Below, in pieces: positions 1,626 to 27,029 of a stretch of 52,266 bases of DNA (positions are counted from its first letter, which is position 1; each line of letters begins with the position of its first letter). The position numbers and the translations under genes are program-made. The stretch covers positions 1 to 52,266 of the forward strand of contig JAYQPD010000003.1 of the NCBI GenBank assembly GCA_038145135.1, given 5' to 3'. This DNA comes from a bacterium. GTDB taxonomy: Bacteria > Patescibacteriota > Minisyncoccia > Phycocordibacterales > UBA918. The notes under the pieces are model-generated. The model searched no databases. It saw only the letters and a program-made list of their open reading frames with translations, and was not told the origin of the DNA.

Positions 1626-1661
1626 CTGTAGCAAACGCATATACATTGTACTCATGAAAAC

Positions 1662-3972: not shown

Positions 3973-3990
3973 GTGCATAAGTATTTTTGT

Positions 3991-7212: not shown

Positions 7213-7222
7213 ACTTTGTGAG

Positions 7223-8545: not shown

Positions 8546-8559
8546 ATGTATGTGCCCTG

Positions 8560-10271: not shown

Positions 10272-11045
10272 TTAATCGGCGGTCGCGTAGAAGGTATTTA
10301 CGCCTTCATGTGCATCAGCCGCAGTGCCAAATGGAATGTAGATACCCCAGAAGACAACGTCGGTGACCGGCGTTGGATTGGTCGGCTTCGCAAGATCCAC
10401 TTCGAGTGCCATGGTGGAGGTGCCGAGCAGATTACAGGTCGTACACGAACTATAGGTGAACGAAGAGGTCGCATACTTTTGCTCATTAACGGGGATCACG
10501 GAAGCGCCATTTGTCAGGTTCGTACCTGCAAGGAGGATATCGATCGCATCGTTTCCGATGTTGTCGATGGTGGTCGTCGCATTATATGAGCCAGTATCTG
10601 ACTCCGTCTCAAGTGAACCATAATCGATCGATTGTGTGACCTCTAGTGCGCGGAGTGTGAGAAGCTCCGTTCCACTTGCGACCGTGGCAGTGCCATACCC
10701 TCCCGCAGTATCAACAGATGAAATGTATGCGTACCACGAGTCGCCGCTATAGACACCGATGTCGGTCGCATCAGCAAAGTAATAGATATCCGCACTACAG
10801 GTCACTATACAGCTGTTACCGCTGCAGTTCGAGAATGAACATGACGAGACCGGATAACACTCGTTGTCATTAGCTGTACAGGACGCACCACCGGAGACCG
10901 AGGAACGATAGATCGTTCCAGTTGCTGATACTACATCGCTGTATCCGTTGAGGTCCGTGACAGTTCCGGTCGCACTTACGGTTGTTGTCGCACCCGGAGA
11001 GAGACTGATATCAAAGCCATCATTAAGAGTCACATTTGTTATGTA
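10272..11045 (-). other. Cys-rich C-terminal module of the giant protein, homologous to 3991..4925
   Basis: ITNVTLNDGFDISLSPGATT...CTANDNECYPVSSCSFSNCSGNSCIVTC...IDYGSLETESDTG...GVNTFYATAD aligns by eye with the C-terminal ~310 aa of the 611-aa protein. Confidence 0.6.
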
Positions 11046-14000
11046 GGGATCATACCTGATCTGCATCTCAGCCACCTCAGAGTAGCTGTCAAGATCTGCA
11101 CCATTATCGGTGACGCGGAAACAGTACCCACCCGCTGTCGCATCTTGTGTTGCGATCATGTCGTACTCAACCTCTGTAAACTCATCTTGGTTGATGTTGA
11201 GACTTCCAGTCATATTCGAAGTGTCTTGGACCATCTTACCGTAGGTAAATGTGCCGAGTCCTCCGAGAAGATCAGTGGTCGATGCCTGATCAGCAAAGTT
11301 TGAAGAATCTGTCATACAAAACGCATCAGTGCCACATGAGGTGGAATCAGGGACCGCGCTATACGTTGCGTATGACACTGCTTCACAGGACGGTGAGGCA
11401 CCCTTTTCAGCGTACTCGAGGCGGAACTGTTTACCGGTCACATCGAGTCCGCTGTTCTCAATGACGAAGCGGAGACGCGCGGTCGACGAAGGTATGAGGC
11501 TTGAGGAGAGCGTGTCGAGTGCTGCGATCCATGTCGCGCCGCCAGAGACCTGCTCGACACCTAAGCGCACCGATGGTTCAGTGGTGAGTAGCGGACGAGC
11601 TGAGTAGATATCCCACCCGCCGTGCTGGAACCAGAACGAGAACCCTACTCCTCCGCTTGTGTACGTACTATCCACGACCGTCGTTGAAGCGACCTCACTG
11701 CCGCCACTGTAGAGTGTGGCGGTGATCGAGTCATCAGTACCCCAGCGGATCTCCACTTCATACCAACCGGTCGAGTAGCTTACTGTGGTCGACGAGAGTA
11801 CCGTACCACTTCCGTCGTTATCGTTGCTGACGACATCCTTCGCGATACTCATACGGTCAGTGCCAGCAACCTGCTCAAGACAGACCGCATAGTTGTTGTT
11901 ATTGGAACCTGGCGTCTGGACACCAAAGAGCGTACAGACCTCATCAAAGGTACCTCCGGCGTCGACGTACTCAAAGTAGCGAATCGTTTCACCTTGTGCC
12001 ACTGACACATCGGTGCGGTAGATACCATCCGTCGTCTGACCACTCACATCAGATGCCTTTAGTCCTCTCGTACGCTCATACGCAAACGATGCGTCCACAC
12101 TGAAGAGGCTTGTATCGCCAGAATATTCACTTATGTTGCTGTCTTCAAATTCATCCAGATACGGGAAGGTGGTCGACGCTGAGCCATCTGACGCACCAGC
12201 ATTCTTATAGTACGCGAAGATCGAAGTGTCAGTTGACGTTGCGAGCAGTGGCACCTCGACCCATACGACTGCCTCAGATGACGCAGTGTATGACTCCTTA
12301 AAGAAGTTGAGTGCGGTCGTGCCATCATCAGCTGTGAACCGAAGGTCCGAGAAATCTCCCTGCATATCGCTGTCATACGGGATAGTGACCTTCACGACCG
12401 CATTGGTGTAAGACTGAGGATCATCGTTCGTTAAGACAACACGTACACGCCGTGTCCACGAGAGGTCGTACCACTCACTATTAGGCACTCCTTCTCCCCC
12501 GTCGTCGTTGCGCCACCTGAAGTGCGTCTGCGCGAGAAGGAGACATGAGCTATCGGTCCAGCGGAGTGAGCCACAGTTATCTCCACCATCAACGTCGTAG
12601 TTCTCACCAGCGAGATTACCGGAGTGGGCCGTGAAGGTCCACGCCGATGGTGTGGTGCCGACCAGTGTGATGTTCTTTCCAGAGATAGCAGTGGTCGTGG
12701 AGAAGGTCATAGCTGTGTAGACCGCTGATGCATTTGCATTCAATGTCGTTGATGAGAGGGTGATGAGTGTACCAGTATCAACTGCAAGTTCAAAGTCACC
12801 GTACGACAACGAGGACACAGTGGTAGTGCCTGAAAGCTCAAGTCCGCTGATACCGAGGTTCCTGAATGCATAGTATGACGCATTAAAGGTACCTCCGCTC
12901 GCTTGTACCGAGTACGTCCCGCTTCCCTGATTAGTGATCGTTGTGGTCGCACCTGCCGCGCCAATAATGTTTAGTGTTCCTTGACTCAAGGTCGACGTAG
13001 CAGTATCAGCAAAGCGAACCGTGACCGGACGTGACGCTGCGGCGCCATCGAAATCGGTCGCATAACTCCAGTAATCAACTCCAGTTGTTCTATGGTAGTC
13101 GCCATAGATATAGAGCTCACCATCAGCCGCACCATGATCCATTGAATAAAGTGATCCTGATGGGTCGACCGTGGTAGAAGTAGCATTCGTGTTCCAAGAC
13201 GTGACATCGAGGTCGGGACCGACGTAGAGCACGTTGTAGCGGTCGCCCCCCGCTGACTTGGTGTTGATCGCATACGTAGTGGTGCCGACAAGGCGAAGTG
13301 TTGAACCGTCCCAGTTCGTCGCACTACCACCGACCGAGTTGAGGAATACACCTCCTACTGAAAGCGTGGTTGACGAAGCTTGGCGGTACGAGGTCAGAGT
13401 GGTAAGAGAAAGATTATGTGTAGTGGTCGCACTCGACACGGTCCATCCGCCAGATGCATTCGCAAATGACACGTTGTAGAACGGTGAAGCTCCAGGATCA
13501 ACCGTCTCCCCAGTGTCGCTCGAGTTGAAGAGTACCGTACCCGACGCGTGATCAAAGGTGCCTCCTGTTGCGGTAAGCGAACCTGCGATAGCGAGGGTGT
13601 TGGTTGCAAAGGTTACCGCACCAGACTGGATCGTGAGCGAGCCCGCAAGTGCAAGTGAACCATCGAGCATCGTGTACGCACCACTACCAGCAAAGATGAC
13701 ACTGCCGAGGTCGCTTCCATTTGCCTTGAGTGATTCAGTGGTCGTACCAGTGAGACGGAGTGTACCACTGTTATGCGTAAGTGTGCCGGTACTTGTCGCG
13801 ATAAAGCTTGAGCCGACCGCAAATATTCCACTCGGGAGAGAAAGTGTGCCATGAGATACCGTGACTGAAAGTGTCGTGGTCGCATTGGTGTCTGGCATTG
13901 ACCAGGAGCCTCCCACGCCATCTACGACGAGCCGGTTAAGACTTGAACCATTGAGTCTGAGTGTCTTTCCTCCCGCGGTGCCGTTGAGGGCAAGCGTGCC

Positions 14001-17000
14001 CGTCGCCTGTGTGAACGAACCACCAGTAGTATTGAACGATCCCGCGACGGTTGTAGTGCCCAGAGGCAACGTCACATCACCGGCAGTGATCGTGAAGTTA
14101 TTTTGTGCAGTCGCGGTCTGGTCGGGCATGGTCCAAGAACCGGAGCCATTGAACACCACGTTATAGAATGGATCTTCATTGGTGTTGACCGTACGTAGTA
14201 AGCCAGTCGTCGTAAAGGTGATGGTCGATTGTGCTGCACTAAAGGTAGCACCTGTACCGAGTATCATACTGCCGCCGATCGAGTGCGATTCACTACCGGC
14301 CGCGGTGAAGAGAGCGTTCGTTTGAAGCTCAAGCGTACCGTCGTATGCTTGGCCTGCACCACCACCTGAGAGGGTGACATCGCCGTTTGGTGCAAATTCC
14401 TTACCCGTCCACACCAACAGTTTGTAGTCCGCAGGAAGCGAGAGTGTGTCTGAACCTGCATCAACTGCTGTAAATGGAACATCACCTGGATCATCAGACG
14501 AATCGTACACGGCCATGTCCGCGATAGTGAGTGGATTAGTACCCTCATGACGGACGATCACTCTATTCTCATAGAGTTCCATATCGGCGATAGAAGAAAC
14601 AGGATCTTGAGATACCGTTGCAGCATTCGGTGCCTCGCCATCGATATACACGATGATATTGTCGCTCGTACTATACGACACACCATTGAACGAATAGAGA
14701 CCGTTTGAAGATGCACACGACGTCGTCGTTGCGTTTCCTGCAATGACGAGTTTGACGTTCTGTGTTAGACCATCGTCACAGACGCTTGAGACGATCGTGC
14801 CCTCATCCTGATAGACATGCCCCGAGATAGTGATGGAACCCAAACTATCATCCCACACGATGTAACCCGGATCACCTCCTGGGTCATTATCTTTCGCTTC
14901 GCCGGAGAGATTGCCGATCGCACTTGCAAAACGCCATGACGACACGGTGGTGCCAGTTGCGGTCACGTTGTATGCAGCGATCGCGGTTGTGGTTGCGAAG
15001 CGGTTATTAGAGAACGTGCGCGCTGGGCTCTGGGTGATCGCAGTGCCGCCAACGGTCATACCTGAACCGCCCGCGATGGATACCTCGATGTCACCATTTC
15101 CGAGATTGACCACGTTCGGGGTGCCCGTGTACACCACACCAGACACATCAAGATTTCTGTACGAGTAGTACCTCATCGTGGTGGATGCGGTACCGCCGAC
15201 CATCACACTGTAGGTGCCGCTTCCCTGGTTGGTGATGGTGGTTGTTGCACCAGCTTGACCGACTACAAAGAGTCCCCCGCCGGTGTAATACGCGCTCGCA
15301 CCAGAGGCAAAGTTCACGGTGACCGCGCGCGAACTACCACCAAGCGCACCACCGTCGAAGTCGTAAGCATAGCTCCAGTAATCAGTGCCAGACGACTTAG
15401 GATAACTTCCATATATGTAGAGCGCACCATCACTGTTGCCATGATCCATTGAGTAGAGTGAACCGGATGCGTCGACATTAGTCGTAGCCGCCGAAGAGTT
15501 CCACATGCGCACGTCAGTATTTGGTCCTATAGTGAGCGTACCGTACGTGTCGTTGTACGCTTTACTATTAAGCGAATAGCTCGTTCCAGAATAGAGATAG
15601 AGCGTCGAATTACTCCAGTCGGTCAGTGCTCCTGAGACCGCGTTCGTAAAGGTGCCGCCCACCGAGATGGTCACACCAGGAGAGGTGGTGAGTGCACCCA
15701 CTTGCGTGAGTGTGAACGCTGCAGTTGCTGTTGCATTTTCCGTAAAGCTAAAGCTTCCTGTGCCATTAAGGACAAGGTTCGAGAAGGATGATGCTCCAGC
15801 AGCGATCGTCGGTGATCCAGAACCAGTCATGGTCACCGTACCTCCCGAACCGTTGTAGGTGCCGTTGTTATCCCAGTTGCCGAGTACCGAAAACGACGCG
15901 CTCGCGCTTCCCGTAAGTGTGCCGTTTCCGCGTATCACTACATCGCCAGTCACTGACACAACCGGATCTGAAGCGTCGAAGGTTACTGTGGTGTTCGAAT
16001 CACCACCCACCGCAAGTGTGCCGAGGACATTGATACCGGTGGCTCCAGTGGTGTATGTCGGCGTACCACTCGCTGCGTTCAGATCGAGATTGTAGTAGGT
16101 GTCGCTTAGAACCGTAGCTGACGTTCCGTTTGAGTACCGTACGATACTCGTTCCTTCCGTAAAGGTGCCCGACACCACAAACGGAGAACCCGAACCACGG
16201 AGGTCAAAGTGGCCAGAACTTGCGTTCAAAACGTGTGCAGCACTGACCGTAAGTACACGCGATATCGTCGTGGTCGCAGTGCCACCTGGTGTCGTCGTTC
16301 CTGCGACGGTGCCGTTACCCAAGGTGAGGTTGTAGAACGTCCATGGGGTCGACGAACCAAGTGTATTGGTGCGCTCTAAGGTCACAGTACCACCAGTGAG
16401 GAGAAGTGTGCCGTCACCACCAAACGACCCGTACGAAAGATCGATATTACCCGAACCACCGAAGGTGCCCGACTGCAGGTCGATATCGCCCGCGATAGCT
16501 AAGTTTGCAACGAGGTCCCAAGAACCCGTACCAGAGAATGTAAGGTCGTTGAGGTTGATCGTTCCCGGTGATGAGATCGTCTTTCCGGTCGAGGTCGCCG
16601 TCATAATGACCGTTGAAGACGCAGGGACGAATGCGCCGCCACTATCAACCTGGAACCTGCCTCCGATCGAGTAGGTCTCTGTCCCCTGTGCGGTCGCAGT
16701 TGCATTGTTGTCGATGTGGAAGGTCGCATCAAATGAGTTTCCGCTTCCACCAGGTTCGAGCGTGACGTTACCGTTTGGTGTGAAGGTGGTTGATGCAAAG
16801 ATGAAGAGTTCGTTCTCGCCCCGCACCGTGAGTGTATCCGGTGTGCCAGTAGCTGCATTGAACGCTATGTCTGTGTCGATATCTTCATCGTACAGAGCCA
16901 TATCTGCGATCGATAGCGCAGTCGCTCCTTCATGTCGTGTCATGACACGATTCGCGTAGAGGTCGAGACCGCCAATATCACCGGTCGGGGTCTTCGTCAC

Positions 17001-23000: not shown

Positions 23001-26000
23001 TGTCGACGAAGAAAGTGTTGCTCCGTCGCTCAAAGATGCGTTGTCATACGCCTTCCACACAGCACTTGAGGTTGCACTCCCCACATCAGCCCAATTAGTG
23101 AGTGCGGAACAATTTCCGCCGGAAGTAGTTGAAGCATACTGAAGCTTTAGTACGTCAGTCGTAGAGGTTGCGTTTGTTACTGCCACCCCGATCCTGAGAC
23201 GGATCTTGTCGTCATACCCGACCACCGTCGAGGTTGAGGTGATCGGCTCATTCTCTATAAGATCTGTCGCCCCAGCAGGCCACGGATCTGTCGGTGTAGT
23301 ACTCGTTGATGTGTTGGCATACCACCGGAACGCAGACTGATCGTAGAGAGGAACGAGACCATAATTTTGTGCAAAAATGACCGTTACGTATGGTGGTATG
23401 TTGTAGTCAGTGCTGAAATTCGTGACATCGACCTGGTGCGCATGTGTCCCGCTTGAACCGGCAAGTGTGGCAGACGTACGCGCAAAGGTGGACTGCTGTA
23501 TTGGTCCGGATGAAGTGATGTCGAGTATATCACTCTCTGTATGTGTTTCTGATCCTCCGGTCGACCCATACGATGAAGAGCCCTTTGGGAATTTATTGTA
23601 GAACGGATCTGTTGGCGTTGCCGATCGGTTCACCCACCCAGCCGGAGGAGTATCGGTCCACATGGTGATCGCGCCTACTGGGGTCGATGTTGCACCTGTG
23701 GTCGATGCATAGATAACCTCAATATATGGTGGCTCGTTGTTGACAAACAACGTCGAGGTGCTGATCGTATGGGTATGACCGGCAGCTGCAGGAAGAGGGC
23801 TCACCTGGGTACCTCCGTTGCGTCCATCCTGAGTACCGCCAGTCGCAGTGCCAGTAGTACTAGACACTGTATGGTAGTGTGTGTTTGAGCCTGCTGTTGT
23901 TGTAGCGCCATTTTCACCATATACGTATCGTCCGTTAAGTGATGAGATCTCCGTCCATCCCGCAGGTGGTGTACTTCCAAACGCGATCACTGCTCCAGAA
24001 GGTATAGAAGCAGGCTCTCCCGCACTGTTGTACTGGATAACGCGAAGTTCGCGATACGCAGGAAGCGACGATGTAGCAGTGACTGTTGGAGTAAGTGTGT
24101 GCGCATGCGCCACATCAGCAACCTCAGTACCTGTACGCTGTTCTGAAGATGCATCACTCGACGCGCTCACCACAGCAGATGCAGTGTGGTTATGCGTTGC
24201 AGTCCCCGACGCCACTCCGTATGAAGAAGAACCCATCACGAATTTTTGATAGAAGGTTCCTGACCCACATGAGAGACAAGTCCATCCAGCCGGAACGGTT
24301 GATGTATCCGAGTAGTAGATGATCATGTTGCCTGTTGCGTCAGACGCCACCTGCCACGGCTTATGTTCGATGAACTCAGCAGTATCGGAAGTGAACGCCG
24401 GTGTTGAAGAAGAGGAAGACGTAGTGAGCGCAGACGCACTCAACTGTTCATAGGAGATAGATGCCGGACCAAGCTCATAGAGGTACGGACTGATGTCTGG
24501 TGAATCGAAACGGTACGTGAGCGTAGCTTGTTCACCTGCACGCAGATCAAGATTCCAACTTAACTCCTTATGGGTGCCCAGGTCACGCACTGCTGCCTCA
24601 CTGTCTATGATCTCATAGTCAAATGGTACCCGTTCAGTGAGACTGCCAGTCAGCGAAGTCGATGCCGTCACGGTAAGGCTCATGGTGTATGGTTCGACCG
24701 GATAGATACGTGTGGGCCCATTTCGTACGATCGAGAACGGTGCGTCCTCCACCACCTCGAAGGTAGTGAATGTATGCGCAAGTGCCCGCCCTGTGTCAGG
24801 GTCGATACGCTCTACATAGAGCTCATACGTACCAGTCGCCATGGTTGCATACGACGAAGCGTAGTCTGGAACATCGACGACATTATTTCCATTACAGAGT
24901 CCCGATGTCGTGACCGGAAGTCTCCTAATGAAATTCTCAGGGTTTATGAGGTAGAGTCCAAGCGTTGCATCACAGAGTGTGTTACCGTTTGGTGAAAGTG
25001 CGGCAAGTGAAATAGTGGATAGTTCGCCCTTTACATATTCGGTCTCATCCGTATTGATCGCCAAGAGTCCCCACTGGAAGTTGAAAGTATCCGTGAACTC
25101 AACACCGCCTTCGTTTATCGTGAGTTCAACAGTGTATTCTCCTGGACGAAGTTTTTTGCGCTCTTTCTCAGGTATCTGTATCGACCAGAGTCCATCATTT
25201 GTTTCGTTCACGGTCGGTTTGATCGGTAAACCACCGATATCTCTGTGTATGATCTCCACGTCTTCGATGTATGCAGTCTTATTAGAGAAGACCTTACGTG
25301 CGGTACGCACTACAATATTTCGCTGCTCATGGTACTTGAGCGCAAAATGTGGCAACTGGTCCCGAGTGAAATCGATCTCGGTAGAGAGTAGGTCGTGGAG
25401 TTTTGGTTTTTCGAGATCAGTGAGCGCGTCTGGTGATACACGCGATTGGAGCGCTGCGCGATCAAGGGTCATTGCGTTGATCTCTACCCACAAACTATCA
25501 ATATAGATTCCTTCGATCTCATCTAGATCACCAACATACCGCGCACGGATCTTAAGCGAGCGAAGATCATTCGGGTCAATGATCGGAGGAAGTGCGAAGA
25601 GGAAATAGCCACCGTTTATTGCATTCGAGGCTTCATCCTCAATAACGACATCACCTGCACTGACCCACAGGTCATCACCAAATGAGTAGTCGACGACGAG
25701 CTTTGGAGAGACACCGCTACCACCTGCGCCAGGTGACGACTTAGCTCCAAACGACATACGGATCTGCGCATTCTCAATGGTTTCAGTCTCAGCGAGATAA
25801 GGGAGTGAGAAGCCATTCCACACAATTTGTTGACCCGAGGGACCCTGGTCCGTGAGTGAGGTAGTTGGCGTACTTGAGGAACCAACGACAGTGGTATCTG
25901 ATGATGGTGCGGTTGATGGACCCCGTGAGTTGGGCGCCACTCCTGGTGAAGTACTACCCACACTGTCCGACACTGTCGTAGTAGCAAATGCTTGTTCGAT

Positions 26001-26966
26001 AATATCAGGGGTCGCACTGTCTGAAGTGGTAACAGGCGGCAGCACCTCCCCATCGGTCGAGTCTTCAGGGAGCGGTTCCTCGGCAAGTGGTTCTGATGGT
26101 GCTACATCTTCATCTACCCCTTGTGCTGGTGTCTCAACAGTGGGTTCTGAAGGAGACGGTTCTGGTGCAGGTGGAGTCGGTGCAGGCTCTGATGAGGTTG
26201 TAGTCTCATCTACTGTTGGCGTCACTTCAGAGAGAAGCGCGAGCGACATGCGACCTCGTACTCTTGTGATGAATGAGGAAACAACCCCAGACACAGTCGT
26301 CTCACCACCAGCATCAGCTTCTGGTGCTGTCGGTGAAGGATCTGGCTCTTGCGGAGGAGGATCTGGCTCTGGGTCTGGCGGAGGTGTCACCTCTTCTTCT
26401 GTAGTGGGAGGAGCAGTGTCAACTGACTGATCAATACCATCTTCTGTGGGAGGTGTCTGTGACGAGGTTTCCTCCGCATTGTTTTGTTGAGTATCTGCGG
26501 CACTACTCTCTCCTTCTCCAGGCACCACGGTGTCCGGAGAAGGTATGGCGCCATCACTTGTTGAAGTTGCACTCGGCACTGACGCTTCATCCAGTGTCTG
26601 ATTACTTGCCGGGGTATCGGACGATCCGGCATCAGATTGAGATGTGCCCGAACGGTTCGGTGAGACACTGTCTGGTGGAGCGTTACCACTGCCACTTGCT
26701 GCAGCATCGCTCGTAAGCAAGTATGCAGAATTTATAGTTGTGAAATCTTGATAGAGTGAACTTTCGCTCAGGTCCTGAACGTACAGTGTCTCAGTGTTTG
26801 TCCACCCATCGGTCTCAATAGTAAGTGGAAGGATATGAATGGTCTCTTCTTTGACCAATGTATCAAAATAATTTGCGTATACTGCGTATCCAAAGAGCAT
26901 AAGAAAGAGCAATACGCCGAATAGTGGCGCCTTATGGCGTATCAAGACTCTTCGTATATCATTCAT
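10272..26966 (-). CDS. Giant (~5,564 aa) membrane-anchored multidomain cell-surface protein, putative adhesin
   Basis: A single uninterrupted frame. The ATG at 26966 (MNDIRRVLIRHKAPLFGVLLFLMLFGYAVYA) is preceded by GGAG 3 nt upstream. The ORF-track start at 26993 is an alternative. Domain content is listed in the sub-features below. Confidence 0.9.
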   Translation of the reverse strand: MNDIRRVLIRHKAPLFGVLLFLMLFGYAVYANYFDTLVKEETIHILPLTIETDGWTNTETLYVQDLSESSLYQDFTTINSAYLLTSDAAASGSGNAPPDSVSPNRSGTSQSDAGSSDTPASNQTLDEASVPSATSTSDGAIPSPDTVVPGEGESSAADTQQNNAEETSSQTPPTEDGIDQSVDTAPPTTEEEVTPPPDPEPDPPPQEPDPSPTAPEADAGGETTVSGVVSSFITRVRGRMSLALLSEVTPTVDETTTSSEPAPTPPAPEPSPSEPTVETPAQGVDEDVAPSEPLAEEPLPEDSTDGEVLPPVTTSDSATPDIIEQAFATTTVSDSVGSTSPGVAPNSRGPSTAPSSDTTVVGSSSTPTTSLTDQGPSGQQIVWNGFSLPYLAETETIENAQIRMSFGAKSSPGAGGSGVSPKLVVDYSFGDDLWVSAGDVVIEDEASNAINGGYFLFALPPIIDPNDLRSLKIRARYVGDLDEIEGIYIDSLWVEINAMTLDRAALQSRVSPDALTDLEKPKLHDLLSTEIDFTRDQLPHFALKYHEQRNIVVRTARKVFSNKTAYIEDVEIIHRDIGGLPIKPTVNETNDGLWSIQIPEKERKKLRPGEYTVELTINEGGVEFTDTFNFQWGLLAINTDETEYVKGELSTISLAALSPNGNTLCDATLGLYLINPENFIRRLPVTTSGLCNGNNVVDVPDYASSYATMATGTYELYVERIDPDTGRALAHTFTTFEVVEDAPFSIVRNGPTRIYPVEPYTMSLTVTASTSLTGSLTERVPFDYEIIDSEAAVRDLGTHKELSWNLDLRAGEQATLTYRFDSPDISPYLYELGPASISYEQLSASALTTSSSSSTPAFTSDTAEFIEHKPWQVASDATGNMIIYYSDTSTVPAGWTCLSCGSGTFYQKFVMGSSSYGVASGTATHNHTASAVVSASSDASSEQRTGTEVADVAHAHTLTPTVTATSSLPAYRELRVIQYNSAGEPASIPSGAVIAFGSTPPAGWTEISSLNGRYVYGENGATTTAGSNTHYHTVSSTTGTATGGTQDGRNGGTQVSPLPAAAGHTHTISTSTLFVNNEPPYIEVIYASTTGATSTPVGAITMWTDTPPAGWVNRSATPTDPFYNKFPKGSSSYGSTGGSETHTESDILDITSSGPIQQSTFARTSATLAGSSGTHAHQVDVTNFSTDYNIPPYVTVIFAQNYGLVPLYDQSAFRWYANTSTSTTPTDPWPAGATDLIENEPITSTSTVVGYDDKIRLRIGVAVTNATSTTDVLKLQYASTTSGGNCSALTNWADVGSATSSAVWKAYDNASLSDGATLSSSTLSGTDKLETYEESNPTASTPADINPGEDGEWDFSLHQNGAEAGVDYCFRMVKSDSTEFATYTRYPRLTTNSAVSSYTLVTPFDNEKVATNTPYFEFYSADPESEQVVYQIQVDNDYSFGSTVIDKESDLVAPSYFTDLASTDKYQFDSGTTIRFYDPATSLSTSTYYWRIRSRDTGSNTWGSWSTIRSFTIDTTVTASTWYQTTEEQFDTDALEGVETPGSDQVSLISGSTTGTTTSSRINFSWGDSGNAWGSLSWNDATTTGTIVYRVQYEVTDDTWADIPDSVLSGNSTGFTTTPVSLLGVDPDTYSSIRIQAVFTFGTGSPTLQDWTLAWGYRIPPPTVASLFPNEKTSTTTPTFEFTTDDPQGDDLVYQIEWSSDYNFGTSTVRTSDTDLGFVNITDGFNFSPFTSGDSIQFTVQSGDAFNNGTTYWWRVRAKDPPPGSDSYSDYSGPYSFTVDTSVTVSTWFQTTTEQFATDILSGATSTGGAATVATTAVETLVAYAEGNIQTPQYRTWNGSSWSSERSALTVGATINWVVVKPGETREEYVMATIGTDQDVNVQVYKNGAWGNLQELTTALPNAAYRGVDVAYENVSGDALVVTCDSDTTPEYWIWNGTSWTDGGSITLSTSNTCGWIKLVSDPTSDEIIMVSLDSSGSQYEAQVWDGSTWVSGSSNVFGSMDEVGHEGIAMAYEESGDQAVVAVSDGTGKRFRWSAWNGSVWSTSATVNLGDHFESGVIASDVGSDNMVLCYIDNDGDIGAVRWTTASWTGQIELETAWVPTDNADDDRPVDCAFEVGGSRDGYIMVTYSDLTNVRYRYWEGATWVAEADVSTIQDSRRVQLRRTGDDLLQLLAFDNTNDRYDYSYWNGSAWSTFQTLETDGSVGAVPFKEPFMIGIRQPGISGTVAGDPGLDWDYGSGPYWKEMTWNATSTGSSTILFQVEYYDGDSWELVPNAVIPGNSSGTTSKPIDLTGLLPVASTYNIIRPVANMACNTGICPELYDWTLTWSAGITVSGTAQQYDQSTNLTSGTVAVALNGVLQTGKTGTISGGAWSIANVNAAPGDIITVFIDGAADSGEAVGVTKYDGVGDVSGINLYERHLSIGSNDNGTVTNADIGLYDQSNDEDLFDDVSSGTLTLCASGETACQDGEIIIKSGNTYQPGSSANVVTHDIEINGTFKPNGNTIRVSGSWDNNATATMATSTVIFTASTTVVETIDQTGAVSGSFYKATFGETAGTATWSLVTAFDVDNNLRVDYGTLARGSVDITIGGNLVTGAAGYWTGVGTTTFDGATAATWSDANAAKQDIGYVVVDGAVKTLTLASNALARTITIGADDILDAGTPTPYDLTVLSHWTNNNVFTSRAGEVIFTATTTGRSIKRGSSSFYDLTFNGAAGAWSFFETTLSVTNDFTISTGTVTLPTGTTTIAGSFINSGGAFGHSNGEMRFTSTGAETITFGATQFTNGPYDLVFNGSGGTWNITDTSATTSHTVRILAGTPTLPSTLLSVGGSFVTTSGAFQHNSGTVQFYSSGSETVSVNSSSFNNLRFTGTGTYTLSNTNLTVLGDITIDSGTVVFPTGTLTLGGSLTNAGSITHSSGTVLFNATASGKTVTLGGSPLYNATFQSTTGGWTLASNATTTHNLTLTSGTLTFGARMSVGSTFTNSLQNASTTWTGSTLALYGAGTYQINASTTNGDTYDTLEIASSTKISMWNSSASTYTVDPTAYLYSKDHAGVDGDLYIFGAYARTSGTEYWSAATDFDGTTLVSPRQVDVRFENGASATLTNATLSVVGTSSGTTTISSISGTYTVNMSGGTTSMQYYSFDALGTTGVTLGTSTYVSSLQHGRFVPGVNAGTGLTVASSTIDANPAKQIFWVEFSTTSAITASNVTQTGGTPTSYWWFRESTGNLDGEAYDSDSGDPGSIRWDDSSYLITATGTVYSDAGITPMGGPTCDNVATSVRAVVNGGAFYDAACDPADGTYTINNIAFNGDPVITVFLNTNGGEKAVTVTKTPTGDIGGLDLYANRVMTRHEGATALSIADMALYDEDIDTDIAFNAATGTPDTLTVRGENELFIFASTTFTPNGNVTLEPGGSGNSFDATFHIDNNATATAQGTETYSIGGRFQVDSGGAFVPASSTVIMTATSTGKTISSPGTINLNDLTFSGTGSWDLVANLAIAGDIDLQSGTFGGSGNIDLSYGSFGGDGTLLLTGGTVTLERTNTLGSSTPWTFYNLTLGNGTVAGTTTPGGTATTTISRVLTVSAAHVLNASSGHFDLRGSGSPFVVSGTFTEGTSIVRYSNGTSATVLSDTYYNLDLNAASGTPTYTTGATGINVLGTLAVGGDSNTTVTFDASDPVVSVTGDVVIRGNGTLTGSASASFSVLGNWDNNGTYNGSGGTVTMTGSGSPTIAAGASSFSNLVLNGTGSFSFTENATATAAFTLTQVGALTTSPGVTISVGGTFTNAVSGALTDWSNSTLYLYSGTSYSLNSKAYNDTYGTLTIGPNTDVRMWNSSAATTNVDASGSLYSMDHGNSDGALYIYGSYPKSSGTDYWSYAYDFDGGALGGSSRAVTVNFASGASAYYTGGGLFVVGQAGATTTITNQGSGTYSVMVGGTASTTMRYYSYRNLDVSGVVYTGTPNVVNLGNGDIEVSIAGGSGMTVGGTAITQSPARTFSNNRFATTTAIAAYNVTATGTTVSSWRFASAIGNLSGEAKDNDPGGDPGYIVWDDSLGSITISGHVYQDEGTIVSSVCDDGLTQNVKLVIAGNATTTSCASSNGLYSFNGVSYSTSDNIIVYIDGEAPNAATVSQDPVSSIADMELYENRVIVRHEGTNPLTIADMAVYDSSDDPGDVPFTAVDAGSDTLSLPADYKLLVWTGKEFAPNGDVTLSGGGAGQAYDGTLELQTNALFTAAGSESHSIGGSMILGTGATFSAAQSTITFTTTGLLRTVNTNEDPFYNVVFNGSGSWTMPDQTATAQNNFTITAGDVTLPLGTTTVAGSFNTTGGSFTQATGTLALNGTAGGKTLRLNGSSLNRLVVDGVGGSWSMPDTNATTTLSVTVSHGTLSLPSGIFAVGSSFIATSTGTLTHNSGTLRLTGTTTESLKANGSDLGSVIFAGSGAYTMLDGSLALAGSLTIQSGAVTFATNTLAIAGSLTATGGTFDHASGTVLFNSSDTGETVDPGASPFYNVSFANASGGWTVSSATTTHNLSLTTLTSYRQASSTTLSVGGVFLNSVGGSATNWDGSTLRLVGTTTYAINTKSAGGDRYNVLYVGPDLDVTSWNTNATSTTVDPSGSLYSMDHGAADGELYIYGDYHRTTGVDYWSYATDFDGAAASRPVTVRFADTATSTLSQGTLNIIGAAGATTTITNQGSGTYSVQASGGTFNASYYAFRNLGISGLELSGTTTVSSLSYGDFELAVDTGTLITLSSTTLNANASAVYTAMTFSTTTAISGKNITLVGTTPSAWTFTAHSGNLAGENYDVDGGDNCGSLRWTDSSCLLLAQTHFRWRNDDGGEGVPNSEWYDLSWTRRVRVVLTNDDPQSYTNAVVKVTIPYDSDMQGDFSDLRFTADDGTTALNFFKESYTASSEAVVWVEVPLLATSTDTSIFAYYKNAGASDGSASTTFPYLDEFEDSNISEYSGDTSLFSVDASFAYERTRGLKASDVSGQTTDGIYRTDVSVAQGETIRYFEYVDAGGTFDEVCTLFGVQTPGSNNNNYAVCLEQVAGTDRMSIAKDVVSNDNDGSGTVLSSTTVSYSTGWYEVEIRWGTDDSITATLYSGGSEVASTTVVDSTYTSGGVGFSFWFQHGGWDIYSARPLLTTEPSVRLGVEQVSGGATWIAALDTLSSSLIPSSTARLRFVIENSGLDVTGKQFRLEYAEKGASPSCEAVSYATYSAVPDSTSCGTDAFCMTDSSNFADQASTTDLLGGLGTFTYGKMVQDTSNMTGSLNINQDEFTEVEYDMIATQDATAGGYCFRVTDNGADLDSYSEVAEMQIRYDPYITNVTLNDGFDISLSPGATTTVSATGTVTDLNGYSDVVSATGTIYRSSVSGGASCTANDNECYPVSSCSFSNCSGNSCIVTCSADIYYFADATDIGVYSGDSWYAYISSVDTAGGYGTATVASGTELLTLRALEVTQSIDYGSLETESDTGSYNATTTIDNIGNDAIDILLAGTNLTNGASVIPVNEQKYATSSFTYSSCTTCNLLGTSTMALEVDLAKPTNPTPVTDVVFWGIYIPFGTAADAHEGVNTFYATAD
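11590..12458 (-). other. DUF2341-like domain followed by a LamG/concanavalin-like domain in the giant protein
   Basis: WTRRVRVVLTNDDPQSYTNAVVKVTIPYDSDMQGDFSDLRFTADDGTTALNFFKESY...VVWVEVPLL..TSIFAYYKN is the typical DUF2341 pattern. It is followed by a ~200-aa beta-sandwich region ending GVGFSFWFQHGGWDIYSARP. Confidence 0.55.
12540..19975 (-). repeat. Three divergent tandem macro-repeats (about 910, 800 and 765 aa) of the giant protein: 17241..19975, 14836..17240 and 12540..14835
   Basis: Each unit starts I(T)xxG(T/H)VYxDxG...C...GD.I.V(F/Y)...LYxNR(V)xxRHEG..L.I.DMA.YD. It continues with many beta-helix-like ~25-aa strands (F.N..F.G.G.W......T....LTI.SGT...P.GT..(V/I).GS). It ends WNS.A.T..VD..G.LYS.DH...DG.LYI.G.Y....G.(D/E)YWS.A.DFDG (around 17730-17890, 15350-15510 and 13050-13210) ...GNL.GE..D.D.GD.G.I.WDDS. 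Confidence 0.7.
20340..21490 (-). repeat. Eight ~48-aa WNGxxW repeats, probable beta-propeller, in the giant protein
   Basis: YRTWNGSSW, VYKNGAWG, WIWNGTSW, AQVWDGSTW, SAWNGSVW, VRWTTASW, RYWEGATW and YSYWNGSAW occur at regular spacing. Confidence 0.6.
21610..22780 (-). repeat. Two FN3-like modules (each followed by a ~200-aa beta region) in the giant protein
   Basis: TLVTPFDNEKVATNTPYFEFYSADPESEQVVYQIQVDNDYSFG...TYYWRIRSRDTGSNTWGSWS..FTIDT aligns with VASLFPNEKTSTTTPTFEFTTDDPQGDDLVYQIEWSSDYNFG...TYWWRVRAKD...YSGPYSFTVDT. Confidence 0.6.
23365..24330 (-). repeat. Three tandem phage-tail-collar-like repeats inside the giant protein
   Basis: Each unit has P(P)AGW(T/V)...YGxxxG(G)xxTHxH ... 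HxH and then a terminal motif. The terminal motifs are LPAYRELRVIQY, NEPPYIEVIYA and NIPPYVTVIFAQ. This is comparable to the PxGW...YGG...H.H...N.QPY..L.YII logic of the tail collar/MdpB family. Confidence 0.4.
25850..26710 (-). other. Pro/Thr/Ser/Glu-rich low-complexity spacer of the giant protein
   Basis: The translation contains TPPPDPEPDPPPQEPDPSPTAPEA, EPAPTPPAPEPSPSEPTVETP and long S/T/P runs. The spacer ends just before GQQIVWNGFSLPYL (about 25800-25850). Confidence 0.8.
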
Positions 26967-27029
26967 TGTCTCCACAACAATGGGCCCACACACAAATTAT
27001 GTGGCTAGAGTGAGGGCCAGTTTAAAGTA

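What the first reader, a model, noticed from the sequence alone, without database searches (positions are those of the whole stretch)
10272..26966. Single 16.7-kb gene for a ~5,564-aa mosaic, membrane-anchored surface protein
One uninterrupted minus-strand frame fills a third of the window. The modules, from N- to C-terminus:
1. one TM/signal-anchor helix;
2. a ~290-aa Pro/Thr/Ser/Glu spacer;
3. an Ig-like region;
4. three tail-collar-like repeats;
5. a ~180-aa module ending YCFRMV;
6. two FN3-like modules;
7. eight WNGxxW propeller-like blades;
8. three 765-910-aa macro-repeats rich in beta-helix-like strands;
9. a DUF2341-like + LamG-like pair;
10. a second YCFRV module;
11. a Cys-rich C-terminal module.
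I cannot place this domain order in any characterised adhesin family. Giant surface proteins are known in small-genome, host-attached bacteria but are functionally unexplored.
Basis: partly seen in the sequence, partly recalled or inferred. Interest (0 to 1): 0.7.

Follow-up and report, generated by a model that had tools for sequence, protein, structure and literature searches.

The report
Conserved giant surface-fibre protein of Paceibacteria
The 16.7-kb reading frame is a real, intact gene for a 5,564-residue secreted, all-beta surface protein, and it belongs to a conserved but uncharacterised family of 5,400-7,700-residue proteins found across ultra-small Paceibacteria (CPR) bacteria, most likely a long cell-surface fibre used to bind sugars on a partner cell.

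Summary
In detail: one uninterrupted minus-strand ORF, 10272..26966 from the ATG (5,564 aa, 583 kDa, pI 4.1).

Misassembly is very unlikely. The internal repeats are only 30-47% identical in protein and share no long DNA repeat. An independent assembly reproduces the 5' part. 15 full-length orthologues align end to end.

The main new result is that this is a conserved orthologous family, not a one-off mosaic. 205 relatives were confirmed in species-representative genomes, almost all Paceibacteria. At least 25 loci hold complete ORFs of 5,441-6,783 aa, some collinear with ours over aa 3-5568.

Gene order is conserved: dockerin protein, HSP20, cohesin/TM protein, giant gene, FN3x4 protein, ABC/MacB transporter.

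At deep divergence the giant keeps 44-48% identity, against 41-49% for HSP20.

DUF2341 passes Pfam's threshold. A ConA/LamG-like lectin fold is supported by structure search. The FN3-like modules, the 8-blade WxGxxW propeller and the beta-solenoid periodicity are supported. "Tail-collar-like" is only a weak resemblance. The macro-repeats (45% of the protein) match no Pfam family or PDB sequence.

Best reading: an N-terminally anchored or retained surface fibre with a lectin-like, Cys-rich distal tip. Function is inferred, not shown. Interest is moderate.

The parts
10272..26966 (-). Giant gene, ATG to stop: 5,564 aa, 583 kDa, pI 4.1
   Evidence: ORF list and translation. GGAG lies 3 nt before the ATG. 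Mass and pI. Collinear orthologues.
26871..26966 (-). N-terminal basic stretch plus the single hydrophobic helix (aa 10-41): a Sec signal anchor or a cleavable signal peptide (AVYA|NY)
   Evidence: Hydropathy. An N-terminal hydrophobic segment is present in almost all complete orthologues. V-x-A motif.
26802..26840 (-). Conserved motif just after the helix, IHILPLTIETDGW (consensus hhhhPxxVxxxGW)
   Evidence: Found in 40 of 67 N-terminally intact family members by pattern search.
25842..26711 (-). Low-complexity Pro/Thr/Ser/Glu spacer (aa ~95-384), probably wall-spanning or flexible
   Evidence: Composition. Identity to orthologues is only 0.14 at occupancy 0.68.
24324..25841 (-). 'Base' module (aa 385-890). 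It is also the N-terminal body of many shorter CPR and archaeal-MAG proteins
   Evidence: Mapping of database hits. Conservation 0.42. Only sub-threshold Pfam hits.
23364..24323 (-). Three tandem ~107-aa PxGW...HxH...HxH...PPY repeats (aa 891-1210), resembling phage tail-collar domains
   Evidence: Motifs. Invariant His in orthologues. PHROG tail protein E 1.6e-5. BFVD 'tail collar domain' protein E 1.2e-4. Not matched by Pfam Collar.
22779..23363 (-). First YCFR beta-sandwich module (aa 1211-1405, YCFRMV at 1377)
   Evidence: AF2 pLDDT mostly 65-92 with beta strands. Homologous to the second YCFR module.
21549..22778 (-). FN3-like 1 (aa 1406-1512), module X-1 (aa 1513-1668) and FN3-like 2 (aa 1669-1815)
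   Evidence: Self-comparison. Ig_Rha78A_N in 15/15 orthologues, best E 5.5e-15. Weak gp130 FN3 hit.
20319..21548 (-). Eight-blade WxGxxW beta-propeller-like region (aa 1816-2225), an uncharacterised domain family
   Evidence: Blade register. No propeller Pfam family in 15 orthologues. Distinct from the FG-GAP repeats in the hit proteins.
19866..20318 (-). Module X-2 (aa 2226-2376), homologous to module X-1
   Evidence: 35% identity, E 9e-15.
17097..19865 (-). Macro-repeat A (aa 2377-3299): an opening segment (read by eye as Ig-like), 77-aa sub-repeats, then a conserved terminal region
   Evidence: No Pfam or PDB match for the macro-repeat profile.
14709..17096 (-). Macro-repeat B (aa 3300-4095)
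   Evidence: Orthologous B copies are 43-55% identical, against 33-39% for paralogous A and C copies.
12414..14708 (-). Macro-repeat C (aa 4096-4860). Its second half was modelled: short strands every 6-8 residues, as in a beta-solenoid, then a larger beta region
   Evidence: AF2 model m9e20be841bd9, mean pLDDT 86.9, DSSP pattern.
11484..12413 (-). DUF2341 (aa 4880-4954) followed by a ConA/LamG-like lectin-fold domain (aa ~4960-5150; position inferred)
   Evidence: Pfam DUF2341 at 51.2 bits against cut-off 23.4, in 16/16 orthologues. Foldseek CBM66 TM 0.65-0.68 prob 1.0, and calreticulin lectin domain.
11049..11483 (-). Second YCFR beta-sandwich module (aa 5171-5315, YCFRVT at 5290)
   Evidence: High pLDDT.
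10275..11048 (-). C-terminal 'tip' (aa 5316-5573): invariant Cys cluster C5372/79/85/90/95/99 plus CxxC 5517/5520. It also ends shorter proteins of the family
   Evidence: Invariant columns. Same module at the C-terminus of P0019, P0020, P0061 and P0063 and of the neighbour at 3991-5826.
27102..28634 (-). Conserved upstream neighbour: signal, cohesin, Pro/Thr linker, FN3, then a C-terminal TM helix with a charged tail
   Evidence: Pfam. Immediately upstream of the giant gene in 63 of 78 loci.
28638..29105 (-). Conserved neighbour: HSP20 small heat-shock protein
   Evidence: Pfam. Syntenic in 58 loci.
29339..31195 (-). Conserved neighbour: secreted Big_6 plus dockerin protein
   Evidence: Pfam. 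Matches in 40 loci, which may include cross-matches to a second dockerin protein.
8560..10119 (-). Conserved downstream neighbour: secreted FN3x4 protein. Its gene overlaps the next (ABC ATPase) gene
   Evidence: Pfam. Immediately downstream in 16 loci, most of those where the downstream DNA is visible.
6004..8584 (-). ABC ATPase (7223-8584) plus MacB/FtsX-type permease (6004-7212)
   Evidence: Pfam. The ATPase follows the FN3x4 gene in L007 as well.
3991..5826 (-). 611-aa secreted protein carrying a paralogue of the giant's C-terminal tip region
   Evidence: BLASTP 30% identity over 342 columns, E 2e-19.

Best explanation
What it is. This is an intact gene for a 583-kDa, acidic, essentially all-beta extracellular protein of a Paceibacteria (Parcubacteria, CPR) bacterium. 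The closest relatives are MAGs labelled Kaiserbacteria. It is the local orthologue of a conserved family of 5,400-7,700-aa proteins.

Proposed mechanism.
1. The N-terminal basic and hydrophobic segment sends the chain through Sec.
2. It then holds the N-terminus at the membrane. Alternatively it is cleaved at V-x-A, and the conserved hhhhPxxVxxxGW motif retains the protein.
3. The variable Pro/Thr/Ser/Glu spacer crosses the wall.
4. The base module, His-rich collar-like repeats, Ig/FN3-type sandwiches, 8-blade propeller and three beta-solenoid-containing macro-repeats form a long, fairly stiff stalk. By rough domain counting it is on the order of 100 nm.
5. The C-terminal DUF2341, ConA-like lectin domain, Ig-like module and Cys-rich tip form the distal binding end. 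This end recognises a conserved ligand, most likely a glycan, on a partner or host cell or on a surface.
6. The neighbouring cohesin-anchor and dockerin proteins probably form a co-expressed surface complex.

Shown: the gene is real and intact, the family and its gene order are conserved, the module anatomy holds, DUF2341 is present, a lectin-like fold is present, and the modelled parts are all-beta.

Inferred: surface location, orientation with the tip outward, extended shape, glycan or partner binding, and any link to the cohesin/dockerin and ABC genes.
For: - Intact ORF. Chance probability about 1e-114.
- Independent assembly of the 5' part at 99.95% identity.
- No long DNA repeats; protein repeats only 30-47% identical.
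- 205 relatives in species genomes. Complete ORFs of 5,441-6,783 aa in at least 25 loci. End-to-end single-HSP collinearity, e.g. L056 covers aa 3-5568 at 48.9%.
- Giant representatives of 5,300-7,732 aa in the exhaustive search.
- Uniform conservation of 0.42-0.59 at about 99% occupancy from aa 385 to the end.
- N-terminal hydrophobic segment in nearly all complete orthologues.
- Short proteins with the same anchor/base and the same tip (P0061, P0063) indicate that the two ends are the functional core and the middle is a spacer.
- The tip module is re-used in the neighbour at 3991-5826.
- DUF2341 is above Pfam's threshold.
- AF2 model of the last 1200 aa: pLDDT 86.9, all-beta, solenoid-like periodicity.
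- CBM66 and calreticulin lectin-fold matches.
- The surroundings are dominated by secreted and surface proteins and the gene order is conserved.
- Literature: giant membrane proteins of CPR bacteria are proposed to be attachment factors (PMC8080830), and more than 4000-aa DUF2341/FhaB proteins are noted in Patescibacteria (PMC11809585).
Against: - There is no experimental or expression evidence of any kind.
- Conservation is uniform and the tip is not hypervariable. At deep divergence the protein is as conserved as HSP20 and more conserved than the cohesin protein. Host-specific adhesins usually behave differently; this pattern fits a structural role or a very conserved ligand better.
- Apart from DUF2341, no adhesion or lectin family reaches a sequence threshold.
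- The lectin-fold match is for one domain of a 1200-aa model, and its position is inferred.
- The V-x-A motif suggests the N-terminal helix may be removed, which would leave the mode of retention unknown.
- There is no LPXTG, dockerin or other known wall-attachment signal.
Confidence: 0.55

Rival explanations
1. It is a structural envelope component rather than an adhesin. On this reading it is a conserved scaffold, spacer or S-layer-like fibre that organises the cell surface, for example by holding the cohesin/dockerin proteins or setting envelope spacing. The lectin-like domains would then bind the cell's own wall polymers.
For: - Conservation is uniform with almost no length variation over the C-terminal ~4,360 aa.
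- At deep divergence it is as conserved as HSP20 (44-48% against 41-49%) and more conserved than the cohesin protein (31-39%).
- Each of the three macro-repeats is conserved orthologously.
- Gene order with the cohesin-anchor protein and HSP20 is fixed.
Against: - No S-layer (SLH or similar) or wall-binding domain was detected.
- Short forms with only base plus tip exist, which fits a 'reach' function better than a lattice.
- There is no evidence of self-assembly.
Confidence: 0.2
2. It is a surface-tethered glycan-degrading or cell-wall-attacking protein. On this reading the beta-solenoid macro-repeats are tailspike- or pectate-lyase-like depolymerases that open the host envelope, and the collar-like and lectin modules provide targeting.
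For: - Solenoid-like strand periodicity in the modelled part of macro-repeat C.
- Weak similarity of the collar-like block to phage tail proteins.
- Giant genes of Omnitrophota have been linked to cell-wall degradation (bioRxiv 10.1101/2023.11.21.568195).
Against: - No glycoside hydrolase, lyase, peptidase or Beta_helix family is hit in 26 macro-repeat copies.
- The macro-repeat profile has no meaningful PDB relative (best E 0.32).
- Foldseek on the model listed no depolymerase or beta-helix enzyme among its top 50 matches.
Confidence: 0.1
3. It is an assembly artefact or pseudogene. On this reading the long frame comes from collapsed or expanded repeats or from chimeric joining and is not translated as one protein.
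For: - The gene contains internal repeats.
- One relative (L001) is split by frame changes.
- Many database homologues are fragments on short contigs.
Against: - The repeats are too diverged to collapse: 30-47% identical in protein, with no DNA repeat of 25 nt or more apart from one weak 4-copy family at 72-100% identity.
- Every 100-aa window from 401 to 5573 aligns to 15 orthologues at 0.33-0.63 identity and 0.92 or higher occupancy, so no hidden frameshift is present.
- At least 25 independent genomes hold complete collinear ORFs.
- An independent Logan assembly matches at 99.95%.
Confidence: 0.01

Closest known systems
Giant membrane/surface proteins of CPR bacteria: Vampirococcus lugosii 1,392-4,163-aa proteins (PMC8080830), and the more than 4000-aa FhaB/DUF2341 proteins counted in Patescibacteria (PMC11809585)
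   Same: - Ultra-small, reduced-genome, presumably host-dependent bacteria.
- Very large secreted or membrane proteins built from interaction-type beta domains (FN3, propeller, DUF2341).
- Proposed role in recognising and attaching to a host.
- Members of this family are named 'DUF2341 domain-containing protein' in NCBI, so some were probably in that census.
   Different: - No sequence relationship to the Vampirococcus proteins was tested or shown.
- The P. danicum paper found no full-length homologues of its own proteins and suggested rapid domain shuffling. This family is the opposite: collinear end to end and strongly conserved across many species.
- No FhaB domain was detected here.
Fibrillar adhesins of monoderm bacteria (anchor + repeated-domain stalk + adhesive tip) and other giant surface proteins in small genomes, e.g. 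Apilactobacillus kunkeei Giant1-5 (PMC12863079)
   Same: - The logic of anchor, long stalk and distal binding end.
- Size range of 3,000-8,000 aa.
- A large share of a small genome is spent on one surface protein.
   Different: - Anchoring, if any, is by an N-terminal helix, with the binding end at the C-terminus. There is no LPXTG, although a sortase and a SpaA pilin lie in the same window.
- The stalk is not a run of near-identical tandem domains. It is a fixed series of different modules plus three old, diverged macro-repeats.
Phage tail fibre / tail-collar receptor-binding modules (Pfam Collar PF07484; T4 gp12 and gp37 with HxH metal sites, recalled from memory)
   Same: - PxGW...HxH...PPY-type motifs with invariant histidines.
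- PHROG tail-protein hit, E 1.6e-5.
- The single significant BFVD fold hit is a 'Phage tail collar domain containing protein'.
- Beta-solenoid segments, as in tailspikes.
   Different: - Three tandem copies in one chain rather than a homotrimer.
- The Pfam Collar model is not matched even at E<=10.
- No tblastn match in 50,697 phage genomes.
- No PDB fold match.
- The His-rich loops are modelled with pLDDT below 50.
DUF2341-containing proteins: predicted pilus-tip (PilY-like) adhesins of archaeal type IV pili (PMC4858521) and ExbB/MotA-associated appendages (PMC12505986)
   Same: A DUF2341 domain above Pfam's threshold, followed by a ConA/LamG-like domain. DUF2341 is taken in the literature as an extracellular adhesion-type domain.
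   Different: - No pilin signal, no type IV pilus genes next to it, and no MotA/ExbB domain.
- DUF2341 makes up 75 of 5,564 residues.
Cellulosome-type cohesin-dockerin surface assemblies
   Same: The gene is flanked, in conserved order, by a membrane-anchored cohesin protein and dockerin-bearing secreted proteins.
   Different: The giant protein itself carries neither a cohesin nor a dockerin. Any physical link is speculation.

Membership tests
DUF2341 (PF10102) | Match to the Pfam model above its gathering score | tested here: met
   51.2 bits against a cut-off of 23.4, aa 4880-4954. Matched in 16/16 orthologues, best E 2.2e-24.
FN3 / Ig_Rha78A_N-type Ig-like domains | Match to fn3 or Ig_Rha78A_N Pfam models | tested here: inconclusive
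   The window copy scores 22-26 bits, just under the 27.4 cut-off. However, 15/15 orthologues match (best E 5.5e-15), and the second copy is 42% identical to the first. The fold assignment is reasonable; formal membership is borderline.
Phage tail collar domain (PF07484) | Match to the Pfam Collar model | tested here: not met
   No match at E<=10 for each repeat or for the whole block, and none in 13 orthologues.
Phage tail collar domain (PF07484) | Structural or sequence similarity to phage tail-fibre proteins | tested here: inconclusive
   For: PHROG 5795 tail protein E 1.6e-5, and a BFVD tail-collar protein at E 1.2e-4 but TM only 0.22-0.27. Against: PDB fold search negative, tblastn against phage genomes negative, and model pLDDT of 60.
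LamG / concanavalin-A-like lectin domains | Sequence match to Laminin_G family models | tested here: not met
   No LamG family in the window protein or in 16 orthologues.
LamG / concanavalin-A-like lectin domains | ConA-like beta-sandwich fold | tested here: met
   Foldseek matches CBM66 (4b1m, 4azz) at TM_target 0.60-0.68, prob 1.0, and the calreticulin lectin domain at TM 0.54-0.56, using a model with pLDDT 86.9.
Right-handed beta-helix / beta-solenoid proteins | Sequence match to beta-helix families | tested here: not met
   0 Pfam families in 26 macro-repeat copies. No meaningful PDB sequence match (best E 0.32).
Right-handed beta-helix / beta-solenoid proteins | Regular coils of three short strands | tested here: inconclusive
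   DSSP on model residues 1-180 shows 3-5-residue strands every 6-8 residues, fitting ~25-aa coils and 77-aa sub-repeats. Coordinates could not be inspected, and no beta-helix protein was among the top Foldseek hits.
FG-GAP / integrin-alpha-type propellers | FG-GAP or VCBS repeat match in the propeller region | tested here: not met
   None in 15 orthologues. In the hit proteins that carry FG-GAP repeats, those repeats lie C-terminal to the segment that aligns with our propeller.
Sortase-anchored (LPXTG) surface proteins | C-terminal LPXTG motif, hydrophobic segment and basic tail | tested here: not met
   No LPxT[GAS] anywhere. The C-terminus is ...GVNTFYATAD.
Cellulosomal components | Cohesin or dockerin domain in the protein | tested here: not met
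   No Pfam hit and no dockerin-type Ca-binding motif. The neighbours do have them.
RTX / type I secreted adhesins, FhaB-TPS exoproteins and autotransporters | RTX nonapeptide repeats, a TPS/haemagglutinin domain or a beta-barrel translocator | tested here: not met
   No such family in Pfam or NCBIfam scans of the whole protein.
Conserved Paceibacteria giant-protein family (defined here) | End-to-end collinearity with orthologues | tested here: met
   Single HSPs cover aa 3-5568 (L056), 50-5568 (L063) and 272-5573 (L010) at 49-50% identity. Occupancy is 0.95-1.0 from aa 385 onward.
Conserved Paceibacteria giant-protein family (defined here) | Gene order HSP20, cohesin/TM protein, giant gene, FN3x4 | tested here: met
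   63, 58 and 16 of 78 loci respectively. The counts are limited by the DNA available on each side. L001 shows the same order.

The most novel reading that the evidence does not exclude
The protein is the core of a conserved, lineage-wide attachment apparatus of Paceibacteria rather than an ordinary adhesin. On this reading it is built around a single-chain pseudo-trimer of phage-tail-collar-like, metal-binding HxH repeats, that is, a tail-fibre-type receptor-binding device taken over by a cellular lineage. It would work together with the syntenic cohesin anchor, dockerin proteins, small heat-shock protein and MacB-type ABC transporter. Its near-housekeeping level of conservation would reflect an essential role in the episymbiotic lifestyle.
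Probability: 0.12. Interest if true: 0.8.

Novelty: new variant of a known kind. Interest (0 to 1): 0.5.

Why it matters
How Paceibacteria/Parcubacteria, one of the largest and least understood groups of ultra-small bacteria, make contact with other cells is unknown, and none is well studied in culture.

A single gene here takes a substantial share of a genome that is probably small. A related Kaiserbacteria contig of 1.05 Mb gives the scale, so roughly 1-3% by my estimate. The gene is kept intact and collinear across many species and evolves about as slowly as a chaperone. That makes it a strong candidate for a central surface function.

The work gives concrete handles for experiments:
- a defined orthologous family;
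- a conserved gene cluster;
- a well-modelled C-terminal lectin-like and Cys-rich tip that could be expressed and tested on glycan arrays;
- an antigen for locating these cells and their partners by microscopy.

It also marks about 2,500 residues of macro-repeat, and several smaller modules, as protein families with no Pfam or PDB relative.

Tried and rejected
Searches that failed or found nothing
A 5000-aa query timed out. I used three ~1000-1200-aa pieces instead.
- Direct self-BLAST returned only the identity hit. I replaced it with a masked sliding-chunk comparison.
- PDB by sequence: nothing at E<=1 for either half. Orthologue profiles gave nothing significant.
- NCBIfam: no hit anywhere in the protein.
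- tRNA and Rfam scans of the window: nothing.
- Promoter and terminator scans around the gene ends: uninformative.

Tests of specific ideas
- Pfam Collar on single repeats at E<=10 and tblastn of the collar-like block against phage genomes were both negative. I therefore reject membership of the tail-collar family and keep only a resemblance.
- FG-GAP identity of the propeller is rejected. The FG-GAP repeats of the hit proteins lie outside the aligned region.
- Dockerin or LPXTG in the giant protein is rejected.
- Assembly collapse or expansion is rejected.

Limits of the structure work
- Foldseek with the 1200-aa multi-domain model gave mostly meaningless global matches to strings of beta-sandwich domains (alpha-2-macroglobulin, mastigoneme, integrin legs; TM about 0.1). 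Only the single-domain lectin-fold hits were used.
- The collar-region model was of low confidence (pLDDT 60), so the negative PDB fold search is weak evidence.

Literature
- Searches found no description of this specific family.
- The Omnitrophota giant-gene papers do not cover CPR proteins of this size.
Full report
NUMBERING. Residues count from the first in-frame start (GTG at 26993 = aa 1).

The ORF list shows one minus-strand frame, 10272..26993, of 5,573 codons without a stop. At the window's base composition, the chance of 5,573 stop-free codons is about 1e-114. G+C is 0.50-0.53 across the gene and 0.46-0.52 in the flanks, so nothing marks it as foreign. The product is 583 kDa with pI 4.1 and is rich in Thr, Ser and Gly.

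2. IT IS NOT AN ASSEMBLY ARTEFACT

Four results argue against that.
- A masked sliding self-comparison shows the repeats are old and diverged. The three macro-repeats are 30-47% identical in protein, the FN3-like pair 42%, and module X 35%.
- At the DNA level, the only direct repeat of 25 nt or more is one weak 4-copy family at 72-100% identity.
- A Logan assembly of run SRR26337511 reproduces window 25102-29220 at 99.95% identity. That stretch covers HSP20, the cohesin gene and the first ~620 codons of the giant gene.
- In an alignment with 15 full-length orthologues, every 100-residue window from aa 401 to 5573 aligns at 0.33-0.63 identity with occupancy of 0.92 or more. No hidden frameshift or foreign insert is present.

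3. THE MAIN NEW FINDING: A CONSERVED FAMILY OF GIANT GENES

Pieces of the protein find database homologues from Paceibacterota/Parcubacteria MAGs.

Scanning one genome per species with an alignment of the FN3-propeller block gave 205 confirmed relatives. The best 78 loci are almost all Patescibacteria, labelled Kaiserbacteria (closest, 61% identity), Sungbacteria, Lloydbacteria, Paceibacteria and so on. Nearly all of them cover the full 1001-aa query.

In these loci the ORF containing the match is complete at 5,441-6,783 aa in at least 25 cases. In many others it runs off the fetched DNA at more than 6,700 aa.

Several orthologues are collinear with ours in a single alignment:
- L056 (Ca. Elulimicrobium): aa 3-5568, 48.9%.
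- L063: aa 50-5568, 48.9%.
- L010: aa 272-5573, 50%.
- L078: aa 279-5573, 52.6%.
- L003: aa 874-5573, 56.5%.

Length differences lie in the N-terminal third. The C-terminal ~4,360 aa are nearly constant in length.

An exhaustive profile search with the window's three macro-repeats found 2,020 cluster representatives at E<=1e-3 and 487 at E<=1e-30. Dozens of these are 5,300-7,732 aa. Public records name such proteins only 'DUF2341 domain-containing protein' (for example MEX0931679.1, 5,649 aa) or 'hypothetical protein'.

4. CONSERVATION PATTERN

Identity to the 15 orthologues is 0.12-0.14 in the N-terminal 384 residues. It then stays at 0.42-0.59 in every module to the C-terminus.

The three macro-repeats are each conserved with their own orthologous copies. 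B against orthologous B is 43-55%, while B against any A or C copy is 33-39%. The triplication therefore predates the divergence of these species.

Across 26 genomes the giant stays at 44-56% identity, while HSP20 falls from 80% to 41% and the cohesin protein from 63% to 31%. In the distant group the giant (44-48%) is as conserved as HSP20 (41-49%) and more conserved than the cohesin protein (31-39%). This is not how fast-evolving, host-specific adhesins usually behave.

5. GENOMIC CONTEXT

Nearly all large ORFs from 145 to 44516 lie on the minus strand, and most encode secreted or surface proteins.

Upstream of the giant gene lie:
- a cohesin, FN3 and C-terminal TM protein (27102-28634);
- HSP20 (28638-29105);
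- a Big_6 plus dockerin protein (29339-31195);
- two FGE-sulfatase-like genes (31416-33112).

Downstream lie:
- an FN3x4 protein (8560-10119) whose gene overlaps an ABC ATPase gene (7223-8584);
- a MacB/FtsX permease (6004-7212);
- a 611-aa secreted protein (3991-5826);
- a second dockerin protein (1768-2919).

The order is conserved. The cohesin protein is immediately upstream of the giant gene in 63 of 78 loci, and HSP20 is syntenic in 58. A dockerin protein matches in 40 loci, although the two window dockerin proteins may cross-match. The FN3x4 protein is immediately downstream in 16 loci, which is most of those where that DNA is visible. The ABC ATPase follows it in L007. A further metagenomic relative (L001) has the same order; there the giant gene is split by frame changes and runs off the contig.

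The 611-aa neighbour carries a paralogue of the giant's last ~340 residues (30% identity, E 2e-19).

6. ANATOMY, MODULE BY MODULE

(a) aa 10-41. Basic residues are followed by the only hydrophobic segment. Almost all complete orthologues have the same arrangement. Most end the hydrophobic stretch with V-x-A, then have 6-14 charged residues, then a conserved hhhhPxxVxxxGW motif. V-x-A is a typical signal-peptidase I site (general knowledge), so signal anchor versus cleaved signal peptide stays open.

(b) aa ~95-384. A Pro/Thr/Ser/Glu-rich spacer, variable in sequence and length among orthologues.

(c) aa 385-890, the 'base'. It is conserved and is also the N-terminal body, after a similar anchor, of many shorter proteins from CPR MAGs and from MAGs labelled Heimdallarchaeota, Nanoarchaeia and Altiarchaeota. 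Only sub-threshold Pfam hits were seen (MG2, Y_Y_Y, Chlam_OMP6 and Top6b_C, each in 1 of 13 sequences).

(d) aa 891-1210. Three ~107-aa repeats carry PxGW, two HxH motifs and PPY. The histidines are invariant or nearly so in 13 orthologues.
- Evidence for a phage tail link: PHROG 5795 'tail protein', E 1.6e-5, on repeat 1. The only significant match of the AF2 model in the viral library is a 'Phage tail collar domain containing protein', E 1.2e-4, prob 1.0, but TM only 0.22-0.27. A marginal PDB profile hit to a chain annotated 'Putative structural protein' (7z47, which I recall as a phage SU10 entry), E 0.16.
- Evidence against: no Pfam Collar match at E<=10, no tblastn match in 50,697 phage genomes and no PDB fold match. 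The model is confident only for the PxGW cores, and the His-rich loops have pLDDT below 50.
- Verdict: a resemblance, not membership. HxH motifs bind metal on the threefold axis of T4 gp12 and gp37 fibres (recalled from memory). Three tandem copies could imitate a trimer. That is a lead, not a result.

(e) aa 1211-1405 and 5171-5315. Two homologous beta-sandwich modules end in YCFR(M)V. Both are modelled as beta strands with good confidence.

(f) aa 1406-1815. FN3-like 1, module X-1 and FN3-like 2. aa 2226-2376 is module X-2. Ig_Rha78A_N is matched in 15/15 orthologues.

(g) aa 1816-2225. Eight ~50-aa blades each start with WxGxxW or a variant. No Pfam propeller family matches. Similar propellers occur N-terminal to FG-GAP repeats in other proteins, and in one protein with a weak prepilin motif, so it is a separate, unnamed domain.

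(h) aa 2377-4860. Three macro-repeats of 923, 796 and 765 aa. By my reading of the sequence and the self-comparison, each consists of an Ig-like opening, a variable number of 77-aa sub-repeats and a well conserved ~300-aa end (...WNSSA...LYSxDHxxxDGxLYIxG...YWSxAxDFDG...). The Ig-like label for the opening was not tested. A profile of 26 copies hits no Pfam family, and its best PDB hits (E 0.32-0.84) are chance-level. The modelled second half of repeat C has short strands every 6-8 residues. That fits ~25-residue solenoid coils with three coils per 77-aa unit. A larger beta region follows.

(i) aa 4861-5170. DUF2341 is above threshold. The domain after it matches CBM66 (TM_target up to 0.68, prob 1.0) and the calreticulin lectin domain, that is, a ConA/LamG-like lectin fold. 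Its position in the chain is inferred, because the search does not report query coordinates.

(j) aa 5316-5573, the tip. It has six invariant Cys within 28 residues plus an invariant CxxC. The same module ends P0019, P0020, P0061 and P0063 and the 611-aa neighbour. P0061 and P0063 (~1,250-1,325 aa) combine the anchor, base and tip with little in between. They look like short forms of the same design.

7. HOW IT MOST LIKELY WORKS

The two ends are the parts shared with the short forms, so the ~4,400 residues between them read as a spacer that sets reach and adds side-binding modules.

My model has four steps:
- Sec export through the N-terminal segment.
- The N-terminus is kept at the membrane, either by the helix or, if the helix is cleaved, through the conserved motif.
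- The low-complexity spacer passes the wall.
- A chain of beta modules and solenoids projects the C-terminal DUF2341, lectin-like domain and Cys-rich tip away from the cell.

Counting about 4 nm per sandwich domain and 0.48 nm per solenoid coil gives very roughly 100 nm. This is my estimate, not a measurement.

The lectin-type fold, and the literature's use of DUF2341 as a pilus-tip adhesin domain (PMC4858521), point to a glycan ligand. The high conservation of the tip suggests that the ligand is itself conserved. All of this is inference; nothing here shows location, shape or binding. I put it at 0.55.

Rivals:
- A structural envelope element (0.2). It is favoured by the near-housekeeping conservation.
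- A tailspike-like glycan-degrading protein (0.1). It is disfavoured by the absence of any enzyme family.
- An artefact or pseudogene (0.01).

8. COMPARISON WITH WHAT IS KNOWN

Giant membrane proteins are described for the CPR bacterium Vampirococcus lugosii and proposed to mediate attachment (PMC8080830).

A census of Patescibacteria proteins found 149 longer than 4000 aa, 82 of them with FhaB and/or DUF2341 domains. It suggested adhesion and rapid domain reshuffling, because no full-length homologues of the P. danicum proteins were found (PMC11809585). The present family probably contributes to that count, but it behaves in the opposite way: it has a fixed order and is strongly conserved.

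Work on giant genes in Omnitrophota concerns proteins above 30,000 aa and does not treat CPR.

I found no paper describing this family, its gene cluster or the cohesin-dockerin pair in Parcubacteria. The library is limited to open-access papers and preprints.

The protein works like a fibrillar adhesin. It fails the defining features of LPXTG, RTX, TPS, autotransporter and cellulosomal proteins.

9. VERDICT

The added value is that the protein is a member of a widespread, collinear, slowly evolving family with conserved gene neighbours, and that most of it is without any known relative.

It is a new variant of a known kind (giant surface proteins of reduced-genome bacteria), not a new kind of system. 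Interest is moderate at 0.5. It is a good experimental entry point into Paceibacteria cell-cell contact, but the general idea is already in the literature and the function remains inferred.

Noticed in passing
window 27102-28634, 29339-31195, 1768-2919: A membrane-anchored cohesin protein and two secreted dockerin proteins (Big_6 plus Dockerin_1; one also has DUF4215). This is a cohesin-dockerin pair in a CPR genome, kept next to the giant gene in many species. I found no paper on it for Parcubacteria.
   Followed up: partly
window 3991-5826: A 611-aa secreted protein whose last ~340 residues are a paralogue of the giant's C-terminal YCFR-end, Cys-rich and tip region (30% identity, E 2e-19). 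The tip module is therefore used at least twice in this gene cluster.
   Followed up: yes
window 145-1308 and 35010-36272: Two Pfam-dark paralogues (387 and 420 aa) share an N-terminal '...SDTLSDSDLGVN.NHTI.FT...' domain. A similar opening is seen in the dockerin protein at 29339-31195. They may be abundant surface proteins.
   Followed up: no
window 40181-40867 and 40872-44516: A sortase lies next to a 1,214-aa SpaA-type (prealbumin-fold) pilin-like protein. The organism therefore has a sortase system, yet the giant protein has no LPXTG.
   Followed up: partly
window 6004-10119: The FN3x4 gene overlaps the gene for an ABC ATPase with a ~220-aa C-terminal extension, followed by a MacB/FtsX-type permease. 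The layout is operon-like, directly downstream of the giant gene. The FN3x4 position is conserved, and the ATPase follows it in L007 as well.
   Followed up: partly
window 28638-29105: An HSP20 small heat-shock gene keeps its place two genes upstream of the giant gene in 58 of 78 loci, down to 35% identity. Whether this is a functional link or just conserved gene order is unknown.
   Followed up: partly
window 31416-33112: Two tandem FGE-sulfatase-like (SUMF1-type) genes, each with an N-terminal hydrophobic segment. They are also present upstream of the cluster in 13 loci.
   Followed up: no
window 36465-38176: Overlapping genes for a UmuC/DinB-type polymerase (IMS domains) and an S24 LexA/UmuD-like peptidase.
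   Followed up: no
L001 5882-15437 (ENA ERZ25039527 contig_85770): The homologous giant gene in this relative is split by frame changes and an in-frame stop. It has a DUF2341-containing insert after the anchor in place of the Pro/Thr spacer. The cause is either sequencing indels or a decaying copy.
   Followed up: partly
proteins P0065, P0071, P0074: The 'base' module (aa 385-890) also occurs in proteins from MAGs labelled Heimdallarchaeota, Nanoarchaeia and Altiarchaeota at 26-35% identity. This suggests either module sharing between CPR bacteria and archaea or mis-binning.
   Followed up: no
protein P0037; window 20319-21548: The WxGxxW propeller also occurs in a 558-aa protein named 'PilV' that has a weak prepilin N-methylation motif, and N-terminal to FG-GAP repeats in Planctomycete-type proteins. 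It appears to be an unnamed, mobile propeller domain.
   Followed up: partly
window ~27035-27062 (minus strand): By eye, a G+C-rich hairpin (ACCCCCGACC...GGTAGGGGGT) lies between the cohesin gene and the giant gene and may be a terminator or attenuator. The consensus terminator scan did not report it.
   Followed up: no
loci L025 and proteins P0087, P0133, P0139: A few family members sit in bins labelled Acidimicrobiales, Burkholderiaceae or Gammaproteobacteria. Given the otherwise strict Patescibacteria distribution, these look like binning errors.
   Followed up: no
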